The notes: generated by a model not told the origin, from the letters alone. DNA of 64,000 nt from Candidatus Rokuibacteriota bacterium (GCA_044866005.1 JBIOTN010000175.1:6330-70329), one strand, 5' to 3'; shown: positions 13,887-31,717, numbered from the stretch's first letter. Program-made: numbers and translations.

Positions 13887-14851
13887 GGCGCTGGAAGCTC
13901 TGGCTCGGGATCGCGGTGAGCGCGGGGCTCCTCTACCTCGCCGGGCGCGGGGTCGAGCTGGAGGAGCTCCAGCGCTCGCTCGGCGAGGTCCGGACGGCGT
14001 GGCTCGTCCCGGTGCTCGCCAGCATCCTTGTCCGCTTCTGGCTCACGGCGCTGCGCTGGCGGATGCTCCTCCGGCCGATCAAGGCGATCGCGGTGCACCG
14101 GCTCTTCGGCGTCACCATGATCGGCTTCATGGCGAACAACGTGCTGCCGGCGCGCATGGGCGAGTTCGTCCGGGCCTACGCGCTCGGGAAGTCGGAGTCG
14201 CTCTCCAAGTCGCTCTCGTTCGCCACCATCGTCCTGGAGCGCGTGTTCGACGGCTTCACGCTGCTCGCCTTCCTCCTGGTCGGCGTCCTCGCCCGCCGGC
14301 CGGAGCCCTGGCTCGTCTGGTCGGCGGTCGGCTCCTTCTGCCTCTACCTGGGCGTGCTGGGCGGACTGCTCTGGTTACGGCACGGGCGCGGCCTCGGCGC
14401 GCTGCTGGCGTGGCTGCCGGAGGCCCTCCGCCGCCGGGCGGCCGGGCCCCTCGATTCGTTCACGCTCGGGCTCGACGTCTTGAACGACGGCCGGGCGCTC
14501 GGGCTCGTGGCCCTGCTCTCGCTCGGGATCTGGCTCGTCAACGTCGCGGGCTTCTACGCGATGTTCCTGGCCTTCTCGCTGGATCTCCCGCTCGACGCGG
14601 CGTTCCTCGTCCTCGCCATCATCGCGGTCGCGCTGGTCATCCCCTCGACGCCCGGCTACGTGGGGCCCTTCCAGGCGGGAACGGTGCTCGGGCTCGCCCT
14701 CTTCGCGGTGCCGAAGGCCACGGCGCTGTCGCTCTCCATCGTCTACCACGCCGTCAACTACGTCCCCATCACCCTCATCGGTCTCGCCTACCTGGGGGTC
14801 ATGAACCTGACGCTCGGCGAGCTCCGCGCGGCGGGGGAGAAGGTCTCGTGA
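13883..14851 (+). CDS. flippase-like TM protein (UPF0104 / MprF C-terminal-like)
   Basis: MRRWKLWLGIAVSAGLLYLAG..., 8 predicted TM helices. The ATG overlaps the upstream stop as ATGA. It is the real part of ORF 13271..14851. Confidence 0.8.
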   Translation: MRRWKLWLGIAVSAGLLYLAGRGVELEELQRSLGEVRTAWLVPVLASILVRFWLTALRWRMLLRPIKAIAVHRLFGVTMIGFMANNVLPARMGEFVRAYALGKSESLSKSLSFATIVLERVFDGFTLLAFLLVGVLARRPEPWLVWSAVGSFCLYLGVLGGLLWLRHGRGLGALLAWLPEALRRRAAGPLDSFTLGLDVLNDGRALGLVALLSLGIWLVNVAGFYAMFLAFSLDLPLDAAFLVLAIIAVALVIPSTPGYVGPFQAGTVLGLALFAVPKATALSLSIVYHAVNYVPITLIGLAYLGVMNLTLGELRAAGEKVS

Positions 14852-15837
14852 GCGGGCCGGCGGGACGGCCGCCGGACGTGGCCGGCATGGTGTCGATCGT
14901 CGTCCCCGTCTACAACGAGGCGCAGAACGTCGGCCCGTTGCTGGAGAGCGTGCGCGACGTGCTCGACGGGCTCGGCCGCCCCTGGGAGCTGATCGTCGTG
15001 GACGACGGCTCGACCGACGACACGGCGGCGCGGCTGCGGGAGCTGACGGCGCGGGTGCCGGCGCTCCGGGTGGTGCGCCTGCGGTCGAACTTCGGGCAGT
15101 CGGCCGCGCTGGCGGCGGGATTCGACCTGGCGCGGGGCGAATTCGTCGTCACGATGGACGGGGACCGCCAGAACGACCCGGCCGACATCCCGCGGCTCCT
15201 GGACGAGCTCAAGGACGGCTACGACGTCGTGAGCGGATGGCGGCGGGAGCGGCGAGACCCCTTCTGGTCGCGGCGCGTCCCCTCCCGCCTGGCGAACGCG
15301 CTCATCTCCTGGATCACCGGGGTGCGCCTCCACGACTACGGCTGCGCGCTCAAGGTCTACCGGCGCGAGATCCTCCGCGACATCCAGCTCTACGGGGAGA
15401 TGCACCGGTTCCTCCCCGCGCTCGCCCGCTGGGTGGGCGCGACGGTCGGCGAGGTTCCCGTCACGCACTGGCCGCGACGGAGCGGCGTCTCGAAGTACGG
15501 GATCGGACGGACGGTCCGCGTGCTGCTCGATCTCCTGACCGTGAAGTTCCTGATGAGCTACTGGACGCGACCGATCCAGATCTTCGGCCTCCTGGGCCTC
15601 GCGGTGGGCGGGAGCGGGATGCTGCTGGCCGTGGTCCTCTCGTATCAAAGGATCGTCCAGGGCGTGCCGCTGGCGAACCGGCCGATCCTGCTGCTGGCCG
15701 TGCTGCTCGTCGTCGTGGGCGCGCAGTTCGTGGGCATCGGCCTTCTCGGAGAGATGATGGTCCGCACCTATCACGAGTCCCAGCGGAAGCCCGTCTACAG
15801 CGTGCGAGAGATCGTCTCCGGCGAGGACCGCCCGTGA
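14848..15837 (+). CDS. GT2 polyprenol-phosphate glycosyltransferase (GtrB/CsbB/ArnC-like) with C-terminal 2-TM anchor
   Basis: MVSIVVPVYNEAQNV...LIVVDDGSTDDT...TMDGDRQNDP, with C-terminal TM helices. GTG 14848 overlaps the upstream stop (GTGA) and follows the RBS GGGGGAGAAGG. ATG 14887 is the alternative start. Confidence 0.85.
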   Translation: MSGPAGRPPDVAGMVSIVVPVYNEAQNVGPLLESVRDVLDGLGRPWELIVVDDGSTDDTAARLRELTARVPALRVVRLRSNFGQSAALAAGFDLARGEFVVTMDGDRQNDPADIPRLLDELKDGYDVVSGWRRERRDPFWSRRVPSRLANALISWITGVRLHDYGCALKVYRREILRDIQLYGEMHRFLPALARWVGATVGEVPVTHWPRRSGVSKYGIGRTVRVLLDLLTVKFLMSYWTRPIQIFGLLGLAVGGSGMLLAVVLSYQRIVQGVPLANRPILLLAVLLVVVGAQFVGIGLLGEMMVRTYHESQRKPVYSVREIVSGEDRP

Positions 15838-16613
15838 AGACCGGGCCTGCCGGCCGGACGGGGGCGCGCGGCCTCCTCCTCCTGGCCGTCGTGCTGGCCC
15901 TCGCCGCCTGCGGCGGCAGCAGCAGCAAGACGACGGGGCCCAATGCCCCGACGAGCTTCAACTTCGGGTCGAACGATCCCCGGCGCGCCACCGCCTTCGG
16001 GGACAGCATCACGGTCGGCGTCCTCGACCTGCGGGTCCGGGGGAACCTCACCACGAGCAGCAACTACCCCGCCGTCCTCCAGGGGATGCTCCAGGGCCTG
16101 GACCCCGCCTGGCGCGTCGTCAACCGGGGCGTGGGCGGCGAGCGGACGGCGGGCGGGTTTCGGCGGTTTTCCAGCGTGCTGGCCGCCGACCACCCGGGGT
16201 TCGTGCTCATCATGGAAGGGACGAACGACGCCTCGGAGGAGGACGATCCCGCCTTCATCGCCGCGAACCTCGACGCGATGGTGGGGCAGGCGCAGGACAA
16301 TCACACGATCCCGATCCTCGGCACGATCCCGCCGAACTTCCGGAACGATCCGCAGGCCCGCGCGATCATCGACGAGGCGAACGTGCTCATCCGGAACATC
16401 GCGCAGGCGCGCGGCATCGTCCTCGCGGAGATCTTCAACGGGATGAACGATCGCACGCTCTTCGGCATCGCGCCCGACCGGGACCCCATCCACCCCAACG
16501 AGCGCGGCTACGGGGTCATGGCGGGCATCTGGTTCAGTGCGATGCGGCAGGCCATCCCGCCGTCGGCGGCGCCGCCGCCCATGGCCCAGAAGCAGCGTCG
16601 GGCCCGGCGGTAG
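15834..16613 (+). CDS. SGNH/GDSL hydrolase-family lipoprotein
   Basis: Signal peptide plus lipobox LALAAC. GDSI motif (AFGDSITVG) and C-terminal DxxH (DPIHPNERG). GTG 15834 overlaps the upstream TGA (GTGA). Confidence 0.8.
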   Translation: MKTGPAGRTGARGLLLLAVVLALAACGGSSSKTTGPNAPTSFNFGSNDPRRATAFGDSITVGVLDLRVRGNLTTSSNYPAVLQGMLQGLDPAWRVVNRGVGGERTAGGFRRFSSVLAADHPGFVLIMEGTNDASEEDDPAFIAANLDAMVGQAQDNHTIPILGTIPPNFRNDPQARAIIDEANVLIRNIAQARGIVLAEIFNGMNDRTLFGIAPDRDPIHPNERGYGVMAGIWFSAMRQAIPPSAAPPPMAQKQRRARR

Positions 16614-17266
16614 GTCTTCAGCCGCAGCCCTCGACCCCGAACGCCACGCTGGTCGACACAACCGACGGGACGCGAAGCCTACTCACTGACGCCATCGACT
16701 CCACGCTCGCGCTGACGGACGCGGGCGCCGCCGTCGCGACCGAGTACACCTACGAGCCCTTCGGCGCCACCACGGTGACGGGCGCACCTTCGACGAGCCC
16801 GGCCCAGTTCACCGGCCGCGAGGACGACGGGACCGGGCTCTACTACTATCGGGCCCGGTACTACCACCCTTCCCTGCAACGATTCGTCAGCGAGGATTCC
16901 CATGTGGTCCCGGTGTACTGGGTGTGTTCTGGCGGACCCGATGTCGGGGGGCGCGTCCGGGTTCTTGTCTCAAACGATCCACGGGAGTTCAATCTGTACA
17001 TGTACGCATTGAACAGTCCCACCGGCTTCGTGGATCGCCACGGCCTTCAGGCAACGCGTCCCTGGGACACGTGTCGACCGTGTCCAGCCGTGCCGAACTG
17101 CACCCTATTCGAGGTCTCAGAGTTCAGCCTACCGGTCGCGCCCGGCATACCCTTCTTCAACTACTGGCGGCTGTGCGTCTACGGCTGTTGGGAGCGAAAG
17201 AGGGGCATCTACAAGCACGAAGAGCCGATCCTCTGCGGAGTCGGACCGACTCCCCTGCAGCCTTGA
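16614..17266 (+). pseudogene. orphan Rhs core C-terminal fragment plus C-terminal toxin (CT) domain, lacking the N-terminal body
   Basis: The frame translates to ...YTYEPFGATTVTGAPSTSPAQFTGREDDGTGLYYYRARYYHPSLQRFVSEDS...NLYMYALNSPTGFVDRHGL. This is the hallmark end of the Rhs repeat-associated core (PxxxxDPxGL), followed by a 73-aa Cys-rich tail. The frame opens directly after the GDSL gene stop, so no upstream Rhs body exists. GC content falls across this region. Confidence 0.65.
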
Positions 17267-17300
17267 GGCGGCGGCTCTGGCAAGCGGCAGAGGGCAAACA

Positions 17301-18266
17301 ATGAGGCGTGTTAAGCAGACCGCGACCGTCCTGCTTGCAGGAATCGGAATGTGGTGGGTGGCTGGGCATGCCACAGCATCTTCTGATGACCTTCTCTCCT
17401 GCAAGATGGCGCAGAAGGTGCCACCGGTTCACTGGATCCCCCTGAACAGGGGAGATCACCTGCAACTCGGTCCCTATGACGCCCTGCTGACCTGCCGCGG
17501 GTCGCATGCTGTGTTCCGAGCAACGCGACCGTTTGGTCTTCGCATAGCTTGGGAGCAAGACGGGACCTCGGTGATCGGCACGATCGGTGAAGAGCATTTC
17601 GTGACGGTCCGAGCCATTCCCGGGGAGTCTCGGCCAGGCGTCCAGATCGAAGTGCTGGACGTCGTAGGCCAGGTCTTCTATTCCCGCGATCGACGAGAGA
17701 TTCGTCGGGCTTTGGTGGCGGAATCCCGGAGTGGGCCCTTTAACGAGGATAGTGAAGGCGAGGACAGGCGCTACGAAGACCTGGTGCAGCTCGGGTGGCG
17801 AACCCTGTCGATGAACGACAGGCTCGGCCCGTGGGACATGATTTGGACGCAGGCTGATGGCAGGCTCGAGGTCGAATTTGAGGGCCCAAATAACCGGATC
17901 GGCGTCTACAACGACGTGCTTGATGGACAGGCTCGCCCCACTGGCAAGGTGCGATTCCGCCCCAACGAATTCTGGGTCGTGGTACCGGGCTATTTCTCTG
18001 ACGCCAGGGTGAACAAGATCATCGGCGAGGTGTGGATCGCCACCGATCGCGCAAGGGTGGAGAGCTTCTTCCAGAAGTATCGGACCCATCACCTTTGGAG
18101 CCAATTCCCCAGCCCAGCCGAGAAGCGGGCCTGGTACTCAGAGTTGGAAGAGAGGCGGAAGCTAGACCCCGGCGGCGCTTACCAGGTATGGCAGCAGGTC
18201 CTCAAGGAGTCCGAGAAGGCGAAACGAGAGTGGGAGCGGATGCTCAGGAGCGATGTGCTGGAATGA
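17301..18266 (+). CDS. hypothetical secreted protein (candidate immunity/cargo protein of the Rhs-CT islet)
   Basis: ATG follows the RBS GAGGG and lies 35 nt after the Rhs-CT stop. N-terminal signal peptide (MRRVKQTATVLLAGIGMWWVAGHA). Local GC is about 55% against about 72% background. No recognisable domain. Confidence 0.6.
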   Translation: MRRVKQTATVLLAGIGMWWVAGHATASSDDLLSCKMAQKVPPVHWIPLNRGDHLQLGPYDALLTCRGSHAVFRATRPFGLRIAWEQDGTSVIGTIGEEHFVTVRAIPGESRPGVQIEVLDVVGQVFYSRDRREIRRALVAESRSGPFNEDSEGEDRRYEDLVQLGWRTLSMNDRLGPWDMIWTQADGRLEVEFEGPNNRIGVYNDVLDGQARPTGKVRFRPNEFWVVVPGYFSDARVNKIIGEVWIATDRARVESFFQKYRTHHLWSQFPSPAEKRAWYSELEERRKLDPGGAYQVWQQVLKESEKAKREWERMLRSDVLE

Positions 18267-19068
18267 GCCGCCTCAGGTGACGGCCCCCGGACGGCCCTCA
18301 CCCTCGAACCTGTGCAGCACGGTAAGTGCGCTTCGGGGCCGTCGGGCCGCCCGTAGATTCCGGGGGTTAGGCTGCACACGCCCCCGCGCTTTATCTTGCG
18401 CTACACGTTGCGAACATCCTGACCGGGCTGGTAGCTGAAGTCGAACGCGTCCAGCCCTTTGACAAAGGGGAAGCGGGCGAGGTGGGGGTCGGCGCGGAGC
18501 TACGGGTCAGGAGCTGGCGATGCCTGGCTGTCCGTATCTGCCGTTACTACGTGCCGGCGCGAAGTCCTATGACTCCGTGTGAGTTCTACAGAAACTTGAT
18601 GCTTTCCCAAACCCCCCAAGAGGCCCCGGCAGGTGCCGAATGTGGTTTCGAGCTCGCTCGTTTCCAGGGGAGGTAACTGGCCGTAAGGAGCCACACTAAT
18701 CCGAGTCGCGTAGACAGTCCGCTTGTACCCAAGCAAGGGTGTGGGACTGGCACCGCCTTGACCGGACGGCTCGCAGGTCCACTATGTGCGGATCTCGGGG
18801 AGCGACGCGACGCCGGGCAGCAACGTCTTCGAGCACACCAGTAGCCCCACCCGCTTCTACAAGTCCCGGATCGCGTGGAATCCCGCCGACGCCGCCTGGA
18901 ACCTCACGCTCAAGGACGGGACGGTCTACGTCCACGGCGATGTCGCCCCGCTCCAGGCGATCCGGGACCTGCGCCGCGGACCAGCGGATGACCTTCGGCC
19001 TGCCTGAAAATCCCTTAGCACCTGTCCCCCTCCGGCGCCGGACACGGGGAGCCGTACGGAGGGGACAG

Positions 19069-19601
19069 ATGCCTCGCAAGAAGGCGACACGATCCGAGGG
19101 GACCGGGGGAACGCTCGCTCGGGCGGCCCGGTCGCCGTGGCCCCTGGAAGTCCGACTGCGGGTGGCCCGGGCGGTGGTCGAGGAGGGGCTCGCCTTGGCG
19201 ACGGTGGCGCGCGCCTGCGGCGTCAGTGCGAAGACGGCGATCCTGTGGGTGCGTCGGTATCGGGCACGCGGGGTGGACGGGTTGCTCCCGGTGACGGCGC
19301 CGCCGGTTCCCGCGACGGGGGCCGAGGCGCGACGGGAGGCCGTGGTGGGGATCCGGCGGGCGCATCCCGAGGTGGGGACGCGCCGGATCCGAGATATCCT
19401 CGAGCGGTTTCACGCCTGGGCGTGTCGGAGCGGACGGTGCGGCGGATTCTGCACGCGGAGGGCCTGAGCGCGCCGCCGGCCCCGCCGCGGGCGAAGGCCC
19501 GGCCGGCCGAGCGGCGGTTTGAGCGGGCGGAGGCGAATCAGCTCTGGCAATCGGATCTCTTCACGTTTCTGCTGCGGCGGCACGAGCGGGTCTACCTGGC
19601 C
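19069..19601 (+). mobile_element. IS481-family transposase remnant (frameshifted near 19410 and 3'-truncated)
   Basis: HTH part (LEVRLRVARAVVEEGLALATVARACGVSAKTAILWVRRYRARGVDGLLP, ...RIRDILER). It then continues in another frame (LGVSERTVRRILHAEGLS...RFERAEANQLWQSDLFTF, the start of the DDE integrase core) and breaks off at the stop of the sigma-54 activator gene. A 12-13 bp inverted repeat (19023..19035 / 19056..19067) lies just upstream of the ATG. Confidence 0.7.
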
Positions 19602-21044
19602 TTAGACGCCGGCGGCGCCGGCGCCGGGCTCTTCCTCGGGCTCGCTCTCCTCGTCGCCGCGGAGGAGCTGGTACTCCTTGAGCTTGTTGTAGAGCGTCTT
19701 GTAGTTGATCCCCAGCAGCCGCGCCGCCTGGGCGCGGTTCCAGCGCGTCCGCTCCAGCGTGCGGACGATCAGGTCCCGCTCGGCCGTCTCGACGACGTGC
19801 CGCACCACGTCCTTGAGCGTGTTCCCCGGCCCCGCCCCGGCCCCCGGGGCGGTCGCGACGAGCGGCGCGCCCCGGCCCCGGAACTCGCCGGGCAGGTCGC
19901 GCAGGGTGAGCGGGCCCTCGGCGAGCACGGCGGCGCGCTTGAGCGCGTTCCGGAGCTCCCGCACGTTCCCCGGCCAGGGGTAGGCCCGCAGGGCCGCGAG
20001 CGCCTCGGCCGTCACGCCGGGCACGGGCTTTCCCAGCTCCTCGCCGATGCGCTGGAGGAAGTGGTCCACGAGCGCCGGCAGGTCCTCGTTCCGCTCGCGA
20101 AGCGCGGGGGCGTGGATGGTGAACTCGTTGAGCCGGTGGTAGAGGTCCTCGCGGAACCGCCCCTCGCGGATGGCGTCCTCGAAGTTGACGTGCGTCGCCG
20201 CGACGATCCGCACGTCGATGGGGATCTGGCCGCGCCCGCCCAGGCGCGTGATGGCGCGGTCCTCGAGCACGCGGAGGAGCTTCATCTGCGTGGAGAGCGG
20301 GAGGTTGCCGATCTCGTCGAGGAAGAGCGTGCCGCCGTGCGCCAGCTCGAACCGGCCCAGGCGGCGCTGGGTCGCGCCGGTGAAGGCCCCCCGCTCGTGT
20401 CCGAACAGCTCGGACTCGACGAGCGTCTCGGGGAGCGCCGCGCAGTCGAGCGGGATGAAGGGGCCCCGCCGGCGCTTGCTCTGGGCGTGGATGGCGTGGG
20501 CGACCAGCTCCTTGCCCGTCCCGCTCTCGCCGCGGATCAGGATCGTCACGTCGTACGGGGCGACGCGCGCGATGAACTGGCGCAGCTCCTCCATGGCGGC
20601 GCTCCCGCCGACGAGGTCCTCGGGGCTGGCGCGCTCGCGCATGGCGGCGCGGAGCGTCTGGACCTCGGCGTGCAGGCGCCGGGTCTCCAGCCCCTTCTCC
20701 ACGACCACCCGCACCTCCTCGAGGTGGACCGGCTTGATCAGGTAATCGAAGGCGCCCAGCTTCATCGCGCGGACGGCGGACTCGATCGTCCCGTGCCCGG
20801 TGAGCATGACGACCGGGACGTGCTCGTCGATCTCCCGGATGCGCCGGAGGACGTCGAGCCCGTCGCCGTCGGGGAGGCGGAGGTCGAGCAGCACCGCCTC
20901 CGGCGCCTGGGCCTCGAAGGCGGCCACGGCGGCCTGGGCGGTCTCGGCCGTCGCGACCTCGTAGCCCAGCTCGCCGAGCGCGCGGGAGAGGATCCAGCAG
21001 ATCTCGGGCTCGTCGTCAACCAGCAGCAGGCGTGTCCGGACCAT
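19602..21044 (-). CDS. sigma-54-dependent response regulator (NtrC family enhancer-binding protein)
   Basis: REC domain (LLVDDEP...D54), AAA+ sigma-54 interaction domain (GESGTGKE, GAFTGA, ESELFGHE) and C-terminal Fis-type HTH. Confidence 0.9.
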   Translation of the reverse strand: MVRTRLLLVDDEPEICWILSRALGELGYEVATAETAQAAVAAFEAQAPEAVLLDLRLPDGDGLDVLRRIREIDEHVPVVMLTGHGTIESAVRAMKLGAFDYLIKPVHLEEVRVVVEKGLETRRLHAEVQTLRAAMRERASPEDLVGGSAAMEELRQFIARVAPYDVTILIRGESGTGKELVAHAIHAQSKRRRGPFIPLDCAALPETLVESELFGHERGAFTGATQRRLGRFELAHGGTLFLDEIGNLPLSTQMKLLRVLEDRAITRLGGRGQIPIDVRIVAATHVNFEDAIREGRFREDLYHRLNEFTIHAPALRERNEDLPALVDHFLQRIGEELGKPVPGVTAEALAALRAYPWPGNVRELRNALKRAAVLAEGPLTLRDLPGEFRGRGAPLVATAPGAGAGPGNTLKDVVRHVVETAERDLIVRTLERTRWNRAQAARLLGINYKTLYNKLKEYQLLRGDEESEPEEEPGAGAAGV

Positions 21045-23244
21045 GGCTCGGCTCCGGTAGGTCGGACCGTTCCGGCGCGCCGCCGCCCGGCGGCGCGCTC
21101 CGGGCGGCGGGGAGGAGGACCATGAAGGTCGTCCCGCGCCCCGGCTCGCTGGCGGCCTCGATCGCGCCGCCGTGCTCCTCGATGATGCGGCGCGTGATGG
21201 CGAGGCCCAGGCCAGTGCCGCGACGCTTGGTGGTGTAGTAGGGCTCGAAGATGACGCCGAGGTGGGAGCCCTCGATGCCGGTCCCCGTGTCCGCCACCGT
21301 GACCGCGACGTTGCCGCTCCGTGGCGCGGGCGTCGCGCCGAACGTGAGCCGGCCGCCGTGCGGCATCGCGTCGAGCGCGTTCAGCGCGAGGTTGAGCAAG
21401 GCTTGCTCCAGCAGCCGCGCGTCGAGCATCAGGCCGGGGAGCCCGGGCTCCGCCTCGACCCGGACCTCCACCGACCGCTGGCGCGCCCGCACGCGGACGA
21501 ACGCCGCGACCGCCTCGAGGATCGGCTCGATCCGCGCGGGCTGTGGCCGGAGCTCCAGGGGGCGCGAGAAGCTCAGGAGCCCCTCCAGCGACTCGTCCAT
21601 GTCGCGCACCTTCCGGTCCGCCGCGTCGAGGAGGGCGCGCTGCTCGTCCCCCACCGGGAGTCGGTCTCGCAGGTACTGGACCGTGGTCCCGATCACCGTG
21701 AGCGGGTTCCGGATCTCGTGCGCCAGGGCCGCGGCCAGTCGCCCGATCGTCGCGTACCGCTCGGCGCGCGCCAGCCGCACCTCCAGGCGCAGCCGCTCCT
21801 CGAGGCCGAAGGTCGTCGCGCGGAGCAGCCGCGCGTGGCGCACGGCGACCGCCAGCTGCTCGGCGATGGGACGCAGCAGGCGCAGGTCGCGACGCCGGAA
21901 GCGGCCCCGCGTCCGGCTGACCAGGGTGAGCGCGCCGACGCTCTCCCGCTCCACGACGAGCGGCACGGTGGTCAGCGAGCGCGCGCCGGGCAGCTCGCGG
22001 AGGAACGGCAGCACGGGGCGGCTCGACGTGGCGATGTCGGCGACGATCGCGGCGCGGCCGGTGCGCATGGCCTCACCGCTGACGGTCTCCCGGAACTCGG
22101 GCGACCACGGGAGCGTCCGTGGCGGCCGGCCGACCTCGCCCACCATCACCTGCCCGCCGTTCCCCTCCGCGTCCATCACCACGATCGCCGAGGCGTCGAA
22201 GGCCGTGATCCGCCGGATCTCCTGCGTGGCGACCCGGAAGATCTCCTCCAGCGACAGGCAGGCCGAGATCGCCTTGCCGATCCGCCGGGTCGCCCGCACC
22301 TGCCGGTTCCGCTCCCGGAGGTCGTCGCGCAGGCAGACGTTCACGATGGGGACCGTCGCGACGTCGGCCAGCTCCAGCAGCCGCTCCGCCAGCGGCTCGC
22401 CGAACGGCCGATCGCCATCGAGCCGCCCCACTGCCAAGAGGCCGACCAGCTCGTCGTCCTGGTGCAGCGGGATGAGGACGGCCGCGGAGACGGCGTCGTC
22501 CCGGAGGTACTCGCGCGGCACGGCGAGGGGGAAGGGCGGCGCGCAGAGGGCGGCGGCGCCCAGCAGCCGGTCGAGGTCGGTCGGCGGCAGCAGCGGCCGT
22601 GGGCCGCGCCGGCCGAGCACGCGGCGCGCCGCGCGCAGGGTCAGGTCCTCCCCGGGCCGCTCGCGCAGCCAGAGGCCGCCCACGTCCCCGTCGGTCAGCG
22701 TCACGGCGAGATCGAGGACCTGCTGACAGATCTCGTCGAGGTCGCGGCCCGGCTTGGCCAGCCGGAGCATCTGGCGGAAGTGGTTGACGTGGAGCTCGGC
22801 GTGGCGGGCGCGGCGCCGCGCCGCGTCGAGCTCCGCGACGACGGCGAGCGCGGGGCCGAGCACGGCCGCCCGCGCCCGCGTCTCCGCCGACACGCCGGCG
22901 CCCGGCCGGCCGAGCAGGAGGAGGACGCCCCGCGTCTCCTCGGCCGAGCCCACCGGGAACGCGACCGCCTCCGGCCACTCGGGGGTGAGCGGCGCATCGG
23001 GGACGAGGGCGGCCGCCGCCGGGGACCGGCTCGCCTGCCGGGCGAAGGCGACGACCGGCGCCTGCTGGAAGGGCTCCTCGGTCGGATGGGCGCCCACGAG
23101 ACGCACGTCCGCCTCGACGGCGAGGAAGAGCGCCCCGCCCTCGCCATGATCGAGGGCCGAGGCGAGGAGATCCCGCGTCACTCGAGCACCGGCACTCCCG
23201 AGGGCCTGGCGAAGGCCGTGAGCCAGGTCCAGGGGCCACGTCAT
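21016..23244 (-). CDS. GAF-domain sensor histidine kinase
   Basis: Several GAF-like modules, an HisKA H-box (LAAALAHEIRNPL) and HATPase_c (DTGTGI...GTGLGLAI). It overlaps the activator gene by 29 nt. Confidence 0.85.
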   Translation of the reverse strand: MTWPLDLAHGLRQALGSAGARVTRDLLASALDHGEGGALFLAVEADVRLVGAHPTEEPFQQAPVVAFARQASRSPAAAALVPDAPLTPEWPEAVAFPVGSAEETRGVLLLLGRPGAGVSAETRARAAVLGPALAVVAELDAARRRARHAELHVNHFRQMLRLAKPGRDLDEICQQVLDLAVTLTDGDVGGLWLRERPGEDLTLRAARRVLGRRGPRPLLPPTDLDRLLGAAALCAPPFPLAVPREYLRDDAVSAAVLIPLHQDDELVGLLAVGRLDGDRPFGEPLAERLLELADVATVPIVNVCLRDDLRERNRQVRATRRIGKAISACLSLEEIFRVATQEIRRITAFDASAIVVMDAEGNGGQVMVGEVGRPPRTLPWSPEFRETVSGEAMRTGRAAIVADIATSSRPVLPFLRELPGARSLTTVPLVVERESVGALTLVSRTRGRFRRRDLRLLRPIAEQLAVAVRHARLLRATTFGLEERLRLEVRLARAERYATIGRLAAALAHEIRNPLTVIGTTVQYLRDRLPVGDEQRALLDAADRKVRDMDESLEGLLSFSRPLELRPQPARIEPILEAVAAFVRVRARQRSVEVRVEAEPGLPGLMLDARLLEQALLNLALNALDAMPHGGRLTFGATPAPRSGNVAVTVADTGTGIEGSHLGVIFEPYYTTKRRGTGLGLAITRRIIEEHGGAIEAASEPGRGTTFMVLLPAARSAPPGGGAPERSDLPEPSHGPDTPAAG

Positions 23245-23296
23245 GCGGCTTTATTGTCTCACGCCGGCGCGGGCGAAGCACTCACCGGCGGCGGGG

Positions 23297-24850
23297 CTAG
23301 GGACGCGGCAGTTCGGAGGGAAGGGCGCCCACCGGGAGACCCAGGCGGCGCAGCAGGAAGGCCAGGAGCAAGCGGGCGTCGCGCCGCCGGCTCCGGGCGG
23401 CGGCATAGAGCCGGTCGAGGGCCAGGCGGTCCGCGGACCGCAGCGGCATCGGCGTCAGGTCCGCGAGCGTGACGAGGCCCGGCGGGGCGAGCGGCAGCTG
23501 GCCGCGCGCGGCGAGCAGGCCCCACTCCGACTCCGAGCGCGCCGCCGTGCCGACCCAGTGGAGGTCGCCCCGCACGACGTTCCAGAGGTGAGGCGCCCGC
23601 GCGAGGCCGAGACGACTGAGAAGGCGCCCGAGCCGGCCCCGGCTCGCCACGCGACGGAGCAGGGCGACGTCCCCGCGGGCGCCGACGACGCGCCGCCGGG
23701 TGAGCGGCCGGCCACCGCTCTCCACGGCCAGGCCCGCGAGCACCGGCAGCCACAGGGGCGCGGCGCCGGCGACGATCGCCATCGCCAGGAGCCGGCCCAT
23801 GAGGCTCCCCGGGTGCGGCCGGAGCGGAACGCGCGTGTCGCCGAGGATCCGCGGATCGCTCACCCGGGTCCAGCTGCCGGCGTGGGCGCGACCGAGCCGC
23901 TCGCGGTCGACGAGCGCGCCCTCCAGGGCGAGCCCACGCCCCACGTGCGTGCGGGGCAGCAGGACCGAGTGCCGCACGGTCGAGCCGCCGCCCACGATGA
24001 CGTCCTCGCCGACGACGCTCCGCTCGACGACCGCGCCGCGCCCGATCACCGCGTTCACGCCCACCAGGACCGGCGGCCGGACGGCGGCGCCCGGGTGGAC
24101 GAGGGCGCCGCGGGACAGGCGGACCCCCGGGCGGACTTCGAAGCCGGGCAGGACGAGTCCCGGCAGCTCGCCGCCGATCGCCATGTGGTTGGCAGCGAGG
24201 AGGTCGCCGGGCGTGCGAACGAGGCGCCCCGGGTCCGTCGTGACGTAGCCGCAGGTGGTGAGGCCGGCGGCCAGGAGGCGCGGCAACAGATCGTCGACCA
24301 GGTCGGCGGGCGTCGCCGGCGACAGCTCGGCGAGCGCCGCGGGGCTGACGAGGGCGAGCCCCGTCGTGGCGAAGCGCCCGCTCACGGGGCGCCGCGGCGG
24401 CGCCAGGCCCCCCTCGTCATCGACGTCCACGTCGCCGTCCTCGCCGTCGGCGGGGACCACGATCAGCGTGAGGACCGCGCCCCGCAGCTGGTGGAACGCG
24501 GCGGCCTTCGAGATGTCGGCGGTGGTCAGCGCGGTGCCCGCGGCCACCAGGAACGGCTCGCTCCACCGAGCGGCGACGCGACGGACCGCGCCGGCGGTGC
24601 CGAGCGGCGTCCGCTCCAGCGCGTACCGGAGCCGCAGGCCCCAGCGCGTGCCATCCCCGAGGCCGGCCTCGATGGGGTACGGGCAGTGGTGGAGGGCCAT
24701 CACCACCTCGCGGACGCGGTGCCGGACGAGGTGGTCGAGGAGGTGCTCGACGACCGGGCGGTTCGCCACCGGCAGCAGCGCGGCCGGCCAGTCGAGCGTG
24801 AGCGGGTGCAGGCGTGTCGCCGCGCCGCCGGCCAGGACGACCGCGTTCAC
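23297..24850 (-). CDS. sugar-1-phosphate nucleotidyltransferase + left-handed beta-helix + degenerate C-terminal bacterial-sugar-transferase (PHPT-like) domain fusion
   Basis: N-terminus MNAVVLAGGAATRLHPLT is the NTP-transferase G-rich loop. The middle is hexapeptide repeats. The C-terminus has a TM helix plus HLWNVVRGDLHWVGTAARSESEWG, which resembles the PHPT core ([21 protein letters not shown]) but lacks the DE dyad. Confidence 0.7.
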   Translation of the reverse strand: MNAVVLAGGAATRLHPLTLDWPAALLPVANRPVVEHLLDHLVRHRVREVVMALHHCPYPIEAGLGDGTRWGLRLRYALERTPLGTAGAVRRVAARWSEPFLVAAGTALTTADISKAAAFHQLRGAVLTLIVVPADGEDGDVDVDDEGGLAPPRRPVSGRFATTGLALVSPAALAELSPATPADLVDDLLPRLLAAGLTTCGYVTTDPGRLVRTPGDLLAANHMAIGGELPGLVLPGFEVRPGVRLSRGALVHPGAAVRPPVLVGVNAVIGRGAVVERSVVGEDVIVGGGSTVRHSVLLPRTHVGRGLALEGALVDRERLGRAHAGSWTRVSDPRILGDTRVPLRPHPGSLMGRLLAMAIVAGAAPLWLPVLAGLAVESGGRPLTRRRVVGARGDVALLRRVASRGRLGRLLSRLGLARAPHLWNVVRGDLHWVGTAARSESEWGLLAARGQLPLAPPGLVTLADLTPMPLRSADRLALDRLYAAARSRRRDARLLLAFLLRRLGLPVGALPSELPRP

Positions 24851-24869
24851 CGACGCCCCCCGGGGTCCC

Positions 24870-25178
24870 TCACGCGGCCCGGCTCGAGACGAGAGCGTCG
24901 GCCAGCGAGGTGAGGACCGGCATGAGGCTCGGCGAGGCGAGGATGCGGACCCGGCGCTCCCGCGCCAGCTGCCGGAGACCGCGCGAGAGGACCTCCAGCC
25001 CGAAGGCTTCGACGACGGTCAGTCCCGACAGGTCGAGCACGAGCTCGCGAGCCTGCGACGGCGTGCGGGCGAGCACGTCCAGCACGTGGCAGGCCGTCGA
25101 GCCGTCCACCGCGCCCTCCAGCGTCACCGTACATCGGTCCTGGCGCTGGCGGCGGCGCACTCGCAGGCGTGGCGCCAT
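24870..25178 (-). CDS. STAS-domain anti-sigma-factor antagonist
   Basis: MAPRLRVRRRQRQDRCTVTLEGAVDGSTACHVLDVL...LVLDLSGLTVVEAFGLEVL. Preceded by the RBS GGGAGG. Confidence 0.7.
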   Translation of the reverse strand: MAPRLRVRRRQRQDRCTVTLEGAVDGSTACHVLDVLARTPSQARELVLDLSGLTVVEAFGLEVLSRGLRQLARERRVRILASPSLMPVLTSLADALVSSRAA

Positions 25179-25191
25179 GCAATCCTCCCGG

Positions 25192-25623
25192 CTAGCTGGC
25201 GACCCGCCGCTCGAGCGGCGCGCGCGCCAGGCGGATCTTCCCCAGGTGCCGCTGCGGCGCATGGCCCGGCGCCGCCACCCCGCCGGCGGCGAGCGCCTCG
25301 ACGGCCGAGGCGACGTCGTCGCAGACGTCGAAGAGCAGGTGGAGCTGCATGATCTCCAGGACGAGTCTGACCTGCGAGGCCAGCCCCACGAGGCAGACAT
25401 CCCCGCCGCGGCGCTCGGCCTGCCGGAGCAGCGTGACCAGCGCGGCAAAGCCGCTGGAGTCCACCCGCCGCACGCCGCTCAGGTCGATGGCCACCCGCGG
25501 CACCCCGATCGGCGCCAGCATGAGTCTGACGCGGCGCAGGAAGGCCGGTGCGGTGGGGACCGTGAGCTCGCCCTCGACGGTCAGGACGGTCACGCTGCCG
25601 AGTTGCTTGGACGTCACCTGCAT
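25192..25623 (-). CDS. STAS-domain anti-sigma-factor antagonist (SpoIIAA-like)
   Basis: MQVTSKQLGSVTVLTVEGELT...IDLSGVRRVDSSGFAALVTL is the classic STAS fold signature. Confidence 0.8.
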   Translation of the reverse strand: MQVTSKQLGSVTVLTVEGELTVPTAPAFLRRVRLMLAPIGVPRVAIDLSGVRRVDSSGFAALVTLLRQAERRGGDVCLVGLASQVRLVLEIMQLHLLFDVCDDVASAVEALAAGGVAAPGHAPQRHLGKIRLARAPLERRVAS

Positions 25624-26095
25624 GGACCAGGCTCCTTCTCCCGACCTCGACCCCGCGATGCACGCGACGTGGGGGCGCTCACGACGCCGCGTGACCGGAG
25701 GTCGGTGCCGTGCCTGGCTCGCGCGCTCCTGATTCGCTCCATCCGTGCCACCGGGTCGTGCGCTCGAAAATGATGCCGACTGATGCCCCTTCCGAGGAGC
25801 AAGACGGATGCCGAGCCCCCGTGGGCCGTGGGGACGCCTCGCTGGAGCCTGCCCCGGCGCGCCGACGCCGGATCAGAGGCCATGATCGGCGACCCGGCCC
25901 CGCGGCGCCCGGGCCGAAAGGTTGCGGACGAGGCTGCAACATTTGCCGCCCCGCCGGCCTGGGATGGCACACGCATGGCGTGGCATTCGCCTTGCCCGCT
26001 CGGGATCGCGACGACCGCGACGTCGTGCGTCGGTCGCCACCCCGCGAGTCGTGTCGGGCGCACCTCGCGCCGCGCAGAGCCGGACGATCGAGCCG

Positions 26096-26830
26096 TCAGG
26101 ACGCCCCCTTCCCCGAGATCACCGCGGGAATCGTACGCAACAGGATCACGAGGTCCATGCCCAAGGTCTGACGCTCGATGTACTGGACGTCGAGTCGGAC
26201 CTGGCCCGGGAAGTCGATGGCGTTCCGGCCCATCACCTGCCAGAGGCAGGTGATGCCCGGCGTCGCCATGAGCCGCCGTCGGTCGGCGGGGTCGTACAGC
26301 GCGACCTCCGACGGGAGCGGCGGACGCGGGCCGACCAGCGACATCTCGCCCTGGAGGACGTTCAGGAGCTGTGGCAGCTCGTCCAGGGACAGCTTGCGAA
26401 TCACGCGGCCGACCCGCGTGATGCGGGGATCGTTCTTGATCTTGAAGAGGATCCCGTCCCGCATCTCGTTCTGCGCCATGAGGTCGGCCTTCAGCGCCTC
26501 GGCGTTCAGCACCATGGAGCGGAACTTGTACATCACGAACAGGCGGCCGTCCTTGCCCACCCGAACCTGGTGGAAGAGGATCGGCCCGCCGTCCTCCAGC
26601 TTGATCCCGAGGGCGATGGCGAGCCAGATCGGCGCGGCGATCACGAGGAGCACGAGCCCGCCGAGGAGGTCCACGGCCCGCTTGAGGCGGGGCGTGGTCC
26701 CGACCCGCACGCGCCACAGGAGCCGGCCGACCGCGATGACGAAGAGGTCGCGGCGGCGCGCCCAGCCGACGCCGCCGCGGGCGAGACGCCGGTGAGTTTG
26801 ACGGAGGAGGCGGGCGCGCTCGGCCGTCAC
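26096..26830 (-). CDS. polyprenyl-phosphate hexose-1-phosphate transferase (bacterial sugar transferase, priming PHPT)
   Basis: [25 protein letters not shown]...[21 protein letters not shown]...[23 protein letters not shown] carries the reentrant helix plus the DE dyad and PRP motif. The GTG start is tentative. Confidence 0.8.
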   Translation of the reverse strand: [244 protein letters not shown]

Positions 26831-26867
26831 GCCAGACCCCCAACGGCGCTGCGTCCCCGGCCCGCGG

Positions 26868-28082: not shown

Positions 28083-28090
28083 GGGTGCCC

Positions 28091-30331: not shown

Positions 30332-30353
30332 CAGACGCTCCTTGCGGTGTCGC

Positions 30354-31403: not shown

Positions 31404-31430
31404 CGTACGCACTGCCCCTCCCGACCGCGG

Positions 31431-31446
31431 AGCAAGGGATGTGCCA
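31431..31446 (-). promoter_or_regulatory. sigma-54 (-24/-12) promoter driving wza-wzc-GT2-PHPT
   Basis: Minus-strand sequence TGGCACatcccTTGCT matches TGGCAC-N5-TTGCW exactly. The predicted TSS near 31420 leaves a 17-nt leader containing GAGGGG before ATG 31403. Confidence 0.6.
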
Positions 31447-31682
31447 GGGAGGGGGGCACTTCCCGGGACCCTTCGCGGAAGCGTCCCCGCTCCACGGTCC
31501 GATCGCGGGTCCGGACATCTGAGGTCCGGCCCCGGACTGGGCCGCTGCCGGTTGTGGCCCTGCATATCCCCGGCCGGCGGAGCGCGCGACCCAAAGTTGC
31601 CCACGTCAGTGCAACAATTTCCGGGGGCGGGCGGGGCGCGTGGCCGATGACCGGCCGAGGCGACGGAAGCGGAGCGGTCCAC

Positions 31683-31698
31683 TGGCACGCCCATTGCT
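31683..31698 (+). promoter_or_regulatory. sigma-54 (-24/-12) promoter driving wzy-RR-wzx-deacetylase
   Basis: TGGCACgcccaTTGCT, with GG and GC at the canonical 10-nt spacing, about 20 nt upstream of ATG 31718. Confidence 0.6.
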
Positions 31699-31717
31699 GC
31701 CTCCGGAGAAACGAGCC

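What the first reader, a model, noticed from the sequence alone, without database searches (positions are those of the whole stretch)
16900..19601. Low-GC islet: candidate immunity/cargo gene, gene remnant and IS481 scar
GC drops from about 72% to 50-55% between roughly 16.9 and 19.0 kb. The islet holds a 321-aa signal-peptide protein (17301..18266) right after the Rhs-CT, a probable gene remnant (18786..19007, ...SPTRFYKSRIAWNPADAAWNLTLKDGTVYV...) and a frameshifted IS481-family transposase (19069..19601). The transposase is cut off exactly at the 3' end of the sigma-54 activator gene.

Together this looks like a horizontally acquired toxin/immunity islet inserted between the glycosylation locus and the EPS regulatory genes. 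A signal peptide on an immunity protein would imply a periplasm-acting toxin.
Basis: partly seen in the sequence, partly recalled or inferred. Interest (0 to 1): 0.55.

Follow-up and report, generated by a model that had tools for sequence, protein, structure and literature searches.

The report
Decayed Rhs toxin-immunity islet with IS scars
This lower-GC stretch is the worn-down tail of a bacterial Rhs "toxin plus antidote" locus: a stranded toxin tip, its intact exported partner gene (probably the antidote) and broken pieces of three other mobile or Rhs genes. This is an ordinary kind of genomic debris, although the toxin tip and its partner belong to families nobody has described.

Summary
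GC falls from about 74% to about 60-62%, not 50-55%. It is still the strongest compositional outlier in the 64-kb window.

The islet holds, in order:
- An orphan rhs fragment without a shell, N-terminal domain or proper start: the Rhs core end plus a 72-aa six-cysteine C-terminal domain (CT).
- An intact 321-aa Sec-exported protein, starting 34 bp later.
- A second rhs fragment, from the early YD shell.
- A frameshifted IS481-like transposase, cut in half and abutting the stop codon of the sigma-54 activator.

The 321-aa protein belongs to a small unannotated family of 63 representative clusters. In 5 of 8 genomic contexts examined, a family member sits directly behind an Rhs end carrying the same six-cysteine CT, even at 27% identity. 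That marks it as a cognate partner, most likely a periplasmic immunity protein.

A sister assembly carries one more orphan module that the window has lost through a 1,732-bp deletion. More distant relatives lack the whole 16.6-42.5 kb block, not just the islet.

Verdict: a known kind of element (orphan Rhs toxin/immunity remnant) with new toxin and immunity families. Interest is modest.

The parts
15834..16613 (+). GDSL/SGNH lipase gene. It is the last gene of the glycosylation locus that keeps synteny with related species, and so marks the left flank of the variable region.
   Evidence: Pfam Lipase_GDSL_2 E=1.1e-26. The gene call comes from sister assembly L001. Orthologs at 57-66% identity occur in Rokubacteria/Methylomirabilota MAGs.
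16614..16660 (+). A 47-bp stub left from the first orphan rhs fragment present in the sister assembly. The 1,732-bp deletion junction lies at 16660|16661.
   Evidence: blastn of L001 against the window shows L001 14385..16116 missing between window 16660 and 16661. The junction sequences share no useful homology.
16661..17047 (+). Orphan rhs fragment: the last ~130 codons of the Rhs core. It has no start codon other than an internal GTG at 16775. It includes YYYRARYY (16841..16864), a ~25-aa insert (16901..16975) and a DRHGL cleavage-type motif (17033..17047).
   Evidence: TIGR03696 Rhs_assc_core E=5.5e-18. There are 1,905 homologs, and the named ones among the 120 listed are called 'RHS repeat-associated protein'. 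tblastn with Rhs proteins hits only 16667..17254 and 18762..18968 in the whole window.
17048..17266 (+). Rhs C-terminal domain (CT) of 72 aa with six invariant cysteines plus invariant P, Y and K. The pattern is C-x2-C-P-x4-5-C ... C-x-Y-x-C-x3-K ... C. It is the presumed toxin domain and has no known family.
   Evidence: Alignment A2 of 5 CTs gives the invariant columns. The same pattern is seen in L107. There is no Pfam hit and no word-sharing homolog. The AF2 model has pLDDT 75-95 over the CT and shows a three-stranded sheet. Foldseek against the PDB gives a best E of 0.5.
17301..18266 (+). Intact 321-aa gene for a Sec-exported protein. It is the conserved genetic partner of the six-cysteine CT and most likely its periplasmic immunity protein.
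   Evidence: An AGAGGG Shine-Dalgarno-like motif lies 6 nt upstream of the ATG. The signal-peptide-like N-terminus reads MRRVKQTATVLLAGIGMWWVAGHATA|SS. The family has 63 representatives at E<=1e-3. Alignment A1 gives invariant W45, C65, W166 and near-invariant C34. Pfam, NCBIfam and PADLOC give no meaningful hit. The AF2 model has pLDDT 86.
18404..18667 (-). Probable scar of an IS21-family istB helper ATPase gene. It is an N-terminal fragment interrupted by a stop codon.
   Evidence: The minus-frame translation reads '...LARFPFVKGLDAFDFSYQPGQ'. NCBIfam PRK09183 IstB matches at E=0.016, positions 62-84. tblastn gives 122 plasmid records; 10 of the 12 listed fall in annotated istB genes (one is an 'AAA family ATPase', one has no feature), and each hit is individually weak (E>=0.06).
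18762..19007 (+). Second rhs fragment, from the early part of the YD-repeat shell. It is cut on the right by the IS481-like element and has a degraded reading frame at its end.
   Evidence: tblastn gives 7 of 7 plasmid hits inside 'RHS repeat-associated core domain' genes, at E from 6e-5 to 0.3. It maps to residues 1148-1213 of a 2349-aa Streptomyces Rhs whose core end is at 1907-2008.
19069..19601 (+). IS481-like transposase remnant. It covers only the N-terminal HTH region and the start of the catalytic domain (about half the protein). It has a frameshift near 19413 and its 3' half is deleted.
   Evidence: NF033577 matches at E=3.8e-13 (positions 2-91) and 2.9e-6 (positions 91-139) in two frames. 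The hand-repaired peptide gives E=3.5e-25 over positions 2-142 of 284, at 89 bits against a 224-bit cutoff. The Pfam HTH and LZ_Tnp_IS481 families also match. The sequence is identical in L001 and differs at one base (99.84%) in L002.
19602..21044 (-). Sigma-54-dependent response regulator, the first gene of the EPS cluster. Its stop codon directly abuts the truncated transposase.
   Evidence: Pfam Response_reg, Sigma54_activat (E=8.8e-71) and HTH_8. The sequence was read directly.

Best explanation
The islet is the decayed tail of an Rhs polymorphic-toxin locus, lodged at a strain- and species-variable junction of a Rokubacteria/Methylomirabilota-type genome.

**What remains**
- An orphan rhs C-terminal fragment: about 130 codons of the conserved core end followed by a 72-residue six-cysteine CT.
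- An intact gene, 34 bp downstream, for a 321-aa exported protein.
- Scars of an IS21 istB gene, of a second rhs gene (early shell) and of a frameshifted, half-deleted IS481-like transposase.

**How it works (inferred, by analogy with characterised orphan rhs-CT/rhsI and cdiA-CT/cdiI modules)**
- The CT fragment lacks the YD shell, the N-terminal delivery domain and a proper initiation region. It therefore cannot be packaged or delivered.
- The partner gene is complete, has its own ribosome-binding site and is exported by Sec to the periplasm. There it would bind and neutralise the same CT when that CT is injected by relatives carrying a full-length Rhs. This would be 'orphan immunity'.
- The toxin probably acts in the periplasm or cell envelope as a small disulfide-stabilised, probably non-enzymatic domain. 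The grounds are the exported location of the partner, its conserved cysteine pair and the six invariant cysteines of the CT.

**Origin**
- The lower GC reflects the usual foreign origin of the exchangeable CT/immunity cassette.
- The compositional switch falls at the cassette boundary inside the core end.
- Insertion sequences and illegitimate deletions then eroded the locus. One such deletion, of 1,732 bp, is caught between sister strains.
For: **Shown**
- Rhs core-end identity of 16661..17047.
- No other rhs sequence in the 64-kb window except 18762..18968.
- A GDSL gene abuts the fragment, so no upstream rhs body exists.
- The CT and partner are paired in the window and in L013, L014/L015, L016 and L107. 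The same C-x2-C-P...C-x-Y-x-C...K...C signature persists down to 27% partner identity. In L016 the partner's start overlaps the Rhs stop. In L014 the pair sits inside a classical array of rhs fragments, each followed by one small ORF.
- N-terminal signal or lipoprotein-type sequences occur across the partner family, together with a conserved cysteine pair.
- Composition: GC3 0.72-0.73 against 0.93-0.98, with tetranucleotide z=6.4.
- Sister assembly L001 holds one more orphan CT plus a downstream ORF at the same place.
- Relatives L005 and L006 lack the region.
- IS scars are present.

**From the literature**
- Orphan modules lack translation initiation signals.
- Orphan modules are often disrupted by IS elements.
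- Orphan immunity genes are expressed and are thought to form an immunity repertoire (PMC3150448; PMC3967940).
Against: - No toxicity, binding or localisation has been tested.
- Three of 8 family contexts (L018-L020 next to an OmpA-like gene, L021, L104-L106) have no Rhs upstream. The family is therefore not exclusively toxin-linked, although free-standing immunity genes are common.
- The partner is large (about 280-320 aa) and has strongly conserved motifs (PWDMIWT, GRVEIEIL, VNKIIGEVWIA, C-terminal ELE). This is unusual for fast-evolving immunity proteins.
- The CT has no recognisable catalytic residues and no fold match, so 'toxin' rests on position only.
- A CxxC...CxxxC pattern could also be a zinc site of a cytoplasmic domain.
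- Whether the genome holds a full-length rhs elsewhere is unknown.
Confidence: 0.72

Rival explanations
1. The 321-aa protein is not an immunity protein. It is a periplasmic or envelope protein with a function of its own (for example ligand binding by its two beta-barrel domains) that merely hitch-hikes in some Rhs arrays as cargo.
For: - Three of 8 contexts lack any Rhs, and one is next to an OmpA-like gene.
- The size and strongly conserved motifs are atypical for immunity proteins.
- The fold resembles tandem cyclic-nucleotide-binding or cupin-type barrels, which are ligand-binding modules.
Against: - In 5 of 8 contexts it is the first ORF after one specific CT type and no other, across 27-39% identity and very different GC contents.
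- Its start overlaps the Rhs stop in L016.
- In L014 it occupies the slot that unrelated small ORFs occupy after the neighbouring Rhs fragments.
- The Foldseek TM-scores are only about 0.2, at about 10% identity.
Confidence: 0.15
2. The orphan module is still active inside the cell. The fragment would be translated from the internal GTG at 16775 (the 163-aa ORF called in the public annotation) and act with the downstream gene as a toxin-antitoxin-like pair, as reported for a Salmonella orphan Rhs.
For: - An ORF 16775..17266 is callable and was annotated (P0064).
- A precedent for orphan Rhs acting as a type II TA-like module is given by the title and abstract of PMC7043789.
Against: - The partner has a conserved export signal, so it would not meet a cytoplasmic toxin.
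- A six-cysteine domain is poorly suited to the reducing cytoplasm unless it binds metal.
- No promoter-like site was found.
- The window copy has lost upstream sequence relative to L001 by an out-of-frame illegitimate deletion, which suggests no selection on the fragment.
Confidence: 0.06
3. The lower-GC segment is a metagenome-assembly chimera: reads of another organism joined through conserved Rhs or IS sequence.
For: - The source appears to be a MAG lineage.
- Rhs cores and IS elements are classical misassembly points.
Against: - Three independent assemblies (the window, GCA_044870165.1 and GCA_044867585.1) share the same junctions at 99.97-99.98% identity.
- The junctions with the GDSL gene and the sigma-54 activator are unique sequence.
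- The host-like GC3 of the core part grades into the cassette exactly at a known recombination boundary.
Confidence: 0.03
4. The unit that was gained or lost is the whole 25.9-kb block 16.6-42.5 kb, meaning the Rhs/IS debris plus the complete EPS (Wzx/Wzy-type) cluster. The islet would simply be the scarred edge of that larger island. This is compatible with the main explanation and concerns the history only.
For: - In L005 and L006 the GDSL gene is followed within about 190 bp by the homolog of window 42538..42759.
- The truncated IS481-like gene abuts the first EPS gene with no spacer.
Against: - The EPS cluster has native composition (GC3 0.93-0.98).
- No flanking repeats, tRNA or integrase were found.
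- The direction of the event (gain here or loss there) cannot be told from two relatives at 60-87% protein identity.
- Further differences, such as the AddAB-like genes at 42.76-49.25 kb, show the whole region is rearranged.
Confidence: 0.4

Closest known systems
Orphan rhs-CT/rhsI modules of Enterobacteria (Dickeya dadantii, Salmonella Typhimurium LT2, E. coli; Poole et al. 2011 PMC3150448; Koskiniemi et al. 2014 PMC3967940)
   Same: - The fragment keeps only the 3' end of the conserved rhs core up to the DPxGL-type motif.
- It is followed by a variable CT and an immediately downstream small-operon partner gene.
- It has no initiation or export signals for the toxin fragment.
- Its composition is foreign relative to the core.
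- Modules occur in tandem (two in sister assembly L001).
- IS elements disrupt such arrays.
   Different: - No 'main' rhs gene lies upstream: a GDSL lipase gene abuts the array. Recombinational reactivation as in Salmonella is therefore impossible locally.
- The cleavage motif reads DRHGL.
- A ~25-aa insert precedes the last core block.
- The organism is a Rokubacteria/Methylomirabilota-type soil bacterium with 74% GC.
- The delivery route (T6SS or other) is unknown.
Orphan immunity gene arrays (for example in Vibrio cholerae T6SS clusters, PMC5361080, and Serratia Rhs orphan immunity, PMC10539506; known to me from the titles and abstracts listed)
   Same: An intact immunity-type gene is kept after loss of the cognate effector, presumably protecting against non-kin attack.
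   Different: - Here the effector fragment is still partly present.
- The immunity role is inferred only from gene order and co-occurrence.
Periplasmic or lipoprotein immunity proteins of envelope-acting T6SS effectors (Tsi and Tli classes; own knowledge, with PMC6899460 and PMC9796082 as examples listed)
   Same: A Sec signal peptide or lipobox on the immunity protein implies that the toxin acts in the periplasm.
   Different: - There is no sequence or significant fold relation to any of them.
- The partner is a two-barrel protein of about 300 aa.
- The toxin is a 60-95-aa cysteine-rich domain without hydrolase motifs.
IS481-family and IS21-family insertion sequences
   Same: The N-terminal HTH and leucine-zipper region, plus the start of the DDE domain, match the IS481 model best. 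A short istB N-terminal motif is present on the other strand.
   Different: Both are non-functional scars. The IS481-like gene is frameshifted and lacks about half of the protein. No inverted repeats or target duplications were identified. The istB piece is under 90 codons and contains a stop.

Membership tests
Rhs / YD-repeat polymorphic toxin (full-length effector) | Long YD-repeat shell (RHS_repeat / TEN_YD-shell) upstream of the core end | tested here: not met
   Pfam found no RHS_repeat in the fragment. tblastn with five Rhs proteins finds only 16667..17254 and an isolated 69-aa shell piece at 18762..18968. A GDSL gene abuts the fragment.
Rhs / YD-repeat polymorphic toxin (full-length effector) | RHS repeat-associated core domain (TIGR03696) ending in a DPxGL-type autoproteolysis motif | tested here: met
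   TIGR03696 E=5.5e-18, 65 bits against a 32.5-bit cutoff, full profile 1-76. The motif is the variant VDRHGL at 17030..17047. Relatives carrying the same CT have DRDGL or DPTGL.
Rhs / YD-repeat polymorphic toxin (full-length effector) | N-terminal delivery domain (PAAR, plug or other) and a start codon | tested here: not met
   The frame has no start upstream of GTG 16775. The sequence left of 16661 is a 47-bp stub and then the GDSL stop codon.
Orphan rhs-CT/immunity module | Core-end fragment plus variable CT plus an immediately downstream ORF, with related modules fused to longer rhs genes elsewhere | tested here: met
   The window has this layout. The same CT type sits on longer Rhs ORFs in L014 (624 aa), L016 (>=364 aa) and L107. 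There is a tandem second module in L001.
Orphan rhs-CT/immunity module | Located downstream of a main rhs gene sharing core homology | tested here: not met
   No main rhs lies in the 64-kb window or in the 10 kb beyond the GDSL side in L001. The rest of the genome could not be searched.
Cognate immunity protein | Specific co-occurrence with one toxin domain family | tested here: met
   In 5 of 8 contexts the family member directly follows the six-cysteine CT. No family member was seen after a different CT. The other 3 contexts stand alone.
Cognate immunity protein | Binds and neutralises the toxin | not testable with these tools
   This needs co-expression, pull-down or competition assays. A complex prediction was not possible with the tool restrictions.
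Sec-exported / periplasmic protein | N-terminal signal peptide with n-, h- and c-regions and an AxA-type site or lipobox | tested here: met
   The sequence reads MRRVKQ / TATVLLAGIGMWWVAG / HATA|SS. A hydrophobic N-terminal segment is present in 34 of 37 members, and a lipobox-like motif in about 8. No dedicated predictor was available, so the cleavage site is inferred.
IS481 family transposase | Full-length DDE (rve) transposase passing the NF033577 cutoff | tested here: not met
   The match is 89 bits against a 224-bit cutoff. Only profile positions 2-142 of 284 are present, and only after repairing a frameshift. IS630 and IS3 models also match the same N-terminal part more weakly.
IS481 family transposase | Terminal inverted repeats and target-site duplication | tested here: inconclusive
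   No second copy was available for comparison and no meaningful repeats were found. A 12-bp hairpin at 19021..19066 upstream of the ATG was seen in the sequence, but it is not an IS end pair.
IS21 IstB helper ATPase | AAA+ ATPase domain with the N-terminal 'FP..K.L..FDF' motif | tested here: inconclusive
   Only the N-terminal motif region is present. NCBIfam gives E=0.016. tblastn hits are weak, and 10 of the 12 listed lie in annotated istB genes, out of 122 matching records. There is no ATPase domain.
Cyclic-nucleotide-binding / cupin beta-barrel proteins | Homology to CNB domains, including the phosphate-binding cassette | tested here: not met
   The only resemblance is Foldseek architecture-level similarity (E=2.5e-7, TM about 0.2, about 10% identity). 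No Pfam cNMP_binding or cupin hit appears for any of 37 members. The profile against PDB sequences gives nothing.

The most novel reading that the evidence does not exclude
The six-cysteine Rhs CT (C-x2-C-P-x4-5-C...C-x-Y-x-C-x3-K...C, 60-95 aa) and the ~290-aa exported two-barrel protein form a previously undescribed, widely scattered toxin/immunity family pair. On this reading the toxin is a small disulfide-locked, non-enzymatic domain that acts in the periplasm by binding or blocking an envelope target. A weak, non-significant fold echo of LptE and an OmpA-like neighbour of one stand-alone partner hint at the outer-membrane or peptidoglycan layer. The immunity protein would be derived from a ligand-binding tandem beta-barrel protein.
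Probability: 0.35. Interest if true: 0.5.

Novelty: new member of a known kind. Interest (0 to 1): 0.3.

Why it matters
**For genome annotation.** A compositional 'island' next to an EPS cluster turns out to be junk from inter-bacterial warfare loci, with one gene probably still useful as orphan immunity. It also shows such loci eroding in real time between sister strains of an uncultivated soil phylum.

**For toxin biology.** The useful by-product is a clean, testable pair: a 72-aa cysteine-rich Rhs tip and a 321-aa periplasmic partner. Both lack any Pfam or NCBIfam family, and both have confident structure models. If the tip proves toxic, it would be among the smallest Rhs toxin domains and probably non-enzymatic.

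Nothing here challenges current concepts.

Tried and rejected
- **Pfam, NCBIfam and PADLOC** on the CT, the 321-aa protein and the remnant gave no family. Two of 37 family members hit 'retention_LapA' at 1e-4, which I judged noise.
- **Word-based homolog search with the CT alone** found nothing.
- **Exact-sequence look-up of the 321-aa protein** was not on record, although the identical cluster representative P0001 exists.
- **Metagenome scan with the sigma-54 activator**, meant to find orthologous EPS loci and test the 3' junction, returned only 40-51% paralogs. It spent the single scan for nothing.
A 2-sequence alignment was used instead.
- **PDB sequence search with the remnant** gave only chance-level hits.
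- **tblastn of the repaired IS481-like peptide against plasmids** gave no match at 1e-5.
- **tRNA and Rfam scans, flanking repeats, and promoter/terminator scans** gave nothing informative.
- **Weak hits of the family to giant repeat proteins** (P0058, P0060, P0063) turned out to be Ig/PKD/BNR-repeat proteins, judged spurious.
- **Homologous recombination between the two Rhs core ends** as the cause of the 1,732-bp deletion was rejected. The junction lies outside shared homology and joins different frames.


Full report
**1. Observation**

The window averages 73.8% GC. Between about 16,900 and 18,760 the GC falls to 61.6%.
- The lowest 500-bp and 1-kb windows are 60.4% and 60.6%. For 1-kb windows, the rest of the window has a mean of 74.2% with sd 2.7%.
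- Only isolated 100-bp windows reach 55%.
- The dip is nevertheless about 5 sd and is the lowest-GC stretch of the 64 kb.
- A tetranucleotide profile makes 17,001-19,000 the top outlier (KL z=6.4).
- Third-codon-position GC is 0.72-0.73 for the two coding pieces inside the dip, against 0.93-0.98 for flanking host genes.
- No tRNA, Rfam family, flanking repeat or promoter/terminator signal marks the region.

**2. Anatomy**

From left to right:
- (a) The GDSL lipase gene 15834..16613 closes the glycosylation locus.
- (b) From 16661 a reading frame without a start encodes the last ~130 residues of an Rhs core ('...TEYTYEPFG...GLYYYRARYYHPSLQRFVSEDS...NLYMYALNSPTGFVDRHGL').
  - TIGR03696 matches at E=5.5e-18.
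  - There are 1,905 database homologs; the named ones among the 120 listed are called 'RHS repeat-associated protein'.
- (c) After DRHGL comes a 72-aa C-terminal domain (CT) with six cysteines (17048..17266).
- (d) 34 bp later, behind an AGAGGG ribosome-binding motif, comes the intact 321-aa ORF 17301..18266.
- (e) On the minus strand at about 18404..18667 there is a short scar of an IS21 istB gene ('LARFPFVKGLDAFDFSYQPGQ').
  - NCBIfam IstB matches at E=0.016.
  - 122 plasmid records give weak tblastn hits; 10 of the 12 listed lie in annotated istB genes.
- (f) 18762..19007 is a second rhs fragment.
  - All 7 tblastn hits in plasmids fall in RHS genes.
  - It aligns to residues 1148-1213 of a 2349-aa Streptomyces Rhs whose core end is at 1907-2008, so it comes from the early shell.
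- (g) 19069..19601 is the N-terminal half of an IS481-like transposase with a frameshift near 19413.
  - With the shift repaired it matches NF033577 at E=3.5e-25 over profile positions 2-142 of 284.
  - The catalytic half is gone.
- (h) The stop codon of the sigma-54 response regulator (19602..21044, minus strand) follows with no spacer.

A tblastn with five Rhs proteins finds no other rhs sequence in the whole window. The toxin gene is therefore a true orphan fragment without a 'main' rhs.

**3. Comparison with sister assemblies**

Two public MAG assemblies carry the same region at 99.97-99.98% identity.
- GCA_044867585.1 has the window's arrangement as far as its contig reaches.
- GCA_044870165.1 (L001) has 1,732 extra bases between window positions 16660 and 16661.

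The extra DNA is a further orphan module (58% GC). It consists of:
- an Rhs end, '...EDPIGLAGGDTNLYGYVLNNPVKLKDPLGL';
- a different proline- and cysteine-rich CT;
- a 316-aa NHL-type beta-propeller ORF;
- about 45 more N-terminal codons of the Rhs fragment that the window retains.

The junction shows no shared homology and joins different frames. The window allele is therefore an illegitimate deletion, not a core-to-core recombination. The locus is being eroded at the strain level.

**4. Comparison with related species**

The lipase gene finds syntenic loci in Rokubacteria/Methylomirabilota MAGs. In L005 and L006 the proteins are 60-87% identical and the order is as follows:
- The upstream glycosylation genes are conserved.
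- The lipase gene is followed within about 190 bp by the homolog of window 42538..42759.
- Next comes the aminotransferase, window 49410..50756.

The 'empty site' therefore spans 16.6-42.5 kb. That includes the islet plus the entire native-GC EPS cluster: sigma-54 regulator, GAF kinase, Wzz/Wza/Wzy, flippase, glycosyltransferases, GH9 and a trypsin-like protease. An AddAB-like pair is also absent from those relatives.

The islet thus sits at the scarred edge of a larger variable block. Whether that block was gained here or lost there cannot be decided from these two relatives.

**5. The 321-aa protein**

It is nearly an ORFan in the word-indexed search, with only itself and one 39% relative. 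An exhaustive HMMER search finds a small family: 63 representatives at E<=1e-3 and 46 at <=1e-10, mostly 270-300 aa.

Family properties:
- No member hits Pfam or NCBIfam meaningfully, and a family profile finds nothing among PDB sequences.
- The alignment shows an N-terminal hydrophobic signal segment in 34 of 37 members and a lipobox-like motif in about 8.
- There is a conserved cysteine pair (C34, C65) and invariant W45 and W166.
- Conserved motifs are PWDMIWT, GRVEIEIL, VNKIIGEVWIA and a C-terminal ELE.
- The window protein has a private ~30-residue insertion near its C-terminus.

Structure:
- AlphaFold2 with this alignment gives a confident model (pLDDT 86). It has a signal helix followed by two beta-barrel-plus-helix units.
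- Foldseek's best PDB matches are tandem cyclic-nucleotide-binding domains of PKA regulatory subunits, followed by cupins (E=2.5e-7, but TM about 0.2 and about 10% identity).
- I read this as an architectural resemblance, not as family membership.

**6. Genetic coupling to the CT**

I examined eight independent genomic contexts of family members.

Five contexts have a family member as the first ORF after an Rhs end carrying the same CT signature:

| Context | Family member |
|---|---|
| window | the 321-aa ORF (P0001) |
| L013 | P0002 |
| L014/L015 | P0003 |
| L016/L017 | P0008 |
| L107 | P0048 |

- The shared CT signature is C-x2-C-P-x4-5-C ... C-x-Y-x-C-x3-K ... C.
- P0048 is only 27% identical and comes from a low-GC organism.
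- In L016 the partner's start overlaps the Rhs stop.
- In L014 the pair lies inside a textbook array: main Rhs, small ORF, Rhs fragment, partner, Rhs fragment, small ORF, Rhs fragment.
- Four of the five carriers also share a ~25-residue insert between 'SEDP' and the last core block. In the window the GC switch at 16,900 falls exactly at the start of this insert. The exchangeable cassette therefore begins there.

Three contexts have no Rhs upstream:
- L018-L020, next to an OmpA-like gene;
- L021;
- L104-L106.

Free-standing immunity genes are common. Even so, this leaves room for a function independent of the toxin.

**7. The CT itself**

- It has no Pfam match and no word-sharing homologs beyond the L013-type copy P0065.
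- Its AlphaFold model was built from only two sequences. It is nevertheless confident over the CT (pLDDT 75-95) and shows a long three-stranded antiparallel sheet.
- Foldseek finds nothing significant in the PDB. The best E is 0.5, to the sheet of LptE.
- No conserved His/Asp/Glu constellation suggests catalysis. The invariants are six Cys, one Pro, one Tyr and one Lys.

**8. Mechanism**

Shown:
- the orphan architecture;
- the conserved pairing of CT and partner;
- the export signal on the partner;
- the foreign composition;
- the IS scars;
- the strain-level deletion.

Inferred from established work on orphan modules:
- Orphan modules lack initiation and export signals, are often hit by IS elements, and their immunity genes stay expressed as a protective repertoire (PMC3150448; PMC3967940).
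- By analogy, the fragment here is undeliverable.
- The 321-aa protein is the cognate immunity, exported to the periplasm. It protects the cell from relatives that still fire this CT.

Further inference:
- A periplasmic immunity protein plus a six-cysteine toxin points to a disulfide-stabilised, probably non-enzymatic toxin acting on the envelope.
- The target is unknown.

**9. Rivals**

- A non-immunity periplasmic cargo protein: about 0.15.
- A still-active intracellular toxin-antitoxin-like orphan, as reported for Salmonella (PMC7043789, abstract): about 0.06. The export signal argues against it.
- Assembly chimera: about 0.03. Three assemblies share the junctions.
- The islet is only the edge of a 26-kb gained or lost block: about 0.4. 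This is compatible with the main reading and concerns history only.

**10. Novelty and score**

The kind of element is well known: an orphan Rhs toxin/immunity remnant with IS debris at a variable locus. The compositional pattern, with a host-like core and a foreign cassette, is the classical Rhs signature.

What is new:
- the family identity of the CT and of its partner;
- the setting in an uncultivated, very GC-rich soil lineage.

I rate it 'new member of a known kind', with interest 0.3. The most novel reading not excluded is a new periplasm-acting, non-enzymatic Rhs toxin class with a two-barrel immunity protein. I give that a probability of about 0.35 and an interest of about 0.5 if true.

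Noticed in passing
L001 14385..16116 (GCA_044870165.1; inserts between window 16660|16661): A sister strain carries an extra orphan module at 58% GC. It consists of an Rhs end 'NNPVKLKDPLGL', a ~105-aa CT with a Pro-rich linker and a Cys-rich tail (L001 15704..16060, minus strand), and a 316-aa NHL-repeat beta-propeller ORF (14741..15691, minus strand) in the immunity position. The window and L002 have lost it by an illegitimate 1,732-bp deletion.
   Followed up: partly
window 16614..42537, compared with L005 10603..10789 and L006 10618..10674: Related Rokubacteria/Methylomirabilota MAGs go straight from the GDSL lipase gene to the homolog of the 73-aa gene at 42538..42759. The whole EPS cluster (sigma-54 regulator, GAF kinase, Wzz, Wza, Wzy, flippase, GTs, GH9, deacetylase, trypsin-like protease) is absent there, even though its GC is native.
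   Followed up: partly
window 42756..49246 (+): An AddB-like (PDDEXK) plus AddA/UvrD-like helicase-nuclease pair is also missing from L005 and L006. In those relatives the 73-aa gene is followed directly by the aminotransferase (window 49410..50756).
   Followed up: no
window 18404..18667 (-): A short scar of an IS21-family istB helper gene lies in the 'spacer' between the 321-aa gene and the second rhs fragment.
   Followed up: yes
window 16901..16975: A ~25-residue insert containing a cysteine sits between 'RFxSEDP' and the final 'NLYxYxxNxP...DxxGL' block of the Rhs core. It is shared by four of the five carriers of the six-cysteine CT (window, L013, L014, L016) but absent in L107 and in typical Rhs proteins. 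The GC switch of the islet starts exactly here.
   Followed up: partly
window 41850..41987: A 69-bp tandem duplication (87% identical copies) lies inside a 203-aa hypothetical gene (41630..42241, minus strand), next to the right edge of the variable block.
   Followed up: no
window 18140..18230 (residues ~280-310 of the 321-aa protein): Relative to all 36 aligned family members, the window protein has a private ~30-residue helical insertion before the conserved C-terminal 'W.E.L...LE' tail.
   Followed up: no
L022 5766..12783 (ENA ERZ25039477 contig_8625): An unrelated genome shows the same kind of debris: three short Rhs fragments, each followed by a small ORF, sit beside an IS66 element with no full-length rhs nearby. 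This supports the view that such main-less orphan arrays with IS scars are common.
   Followed up: no
L018 4494..5855 (also L019, L020): A distant stand-alone member of the 321-aa family (P0041, 28% identity) is encoded 48 bp after a 152-aa OmpA-like peptidoglycan-binding lipoprotein-type gene. This is a possible hint at an envelope-related role or target.
   Followed up: no
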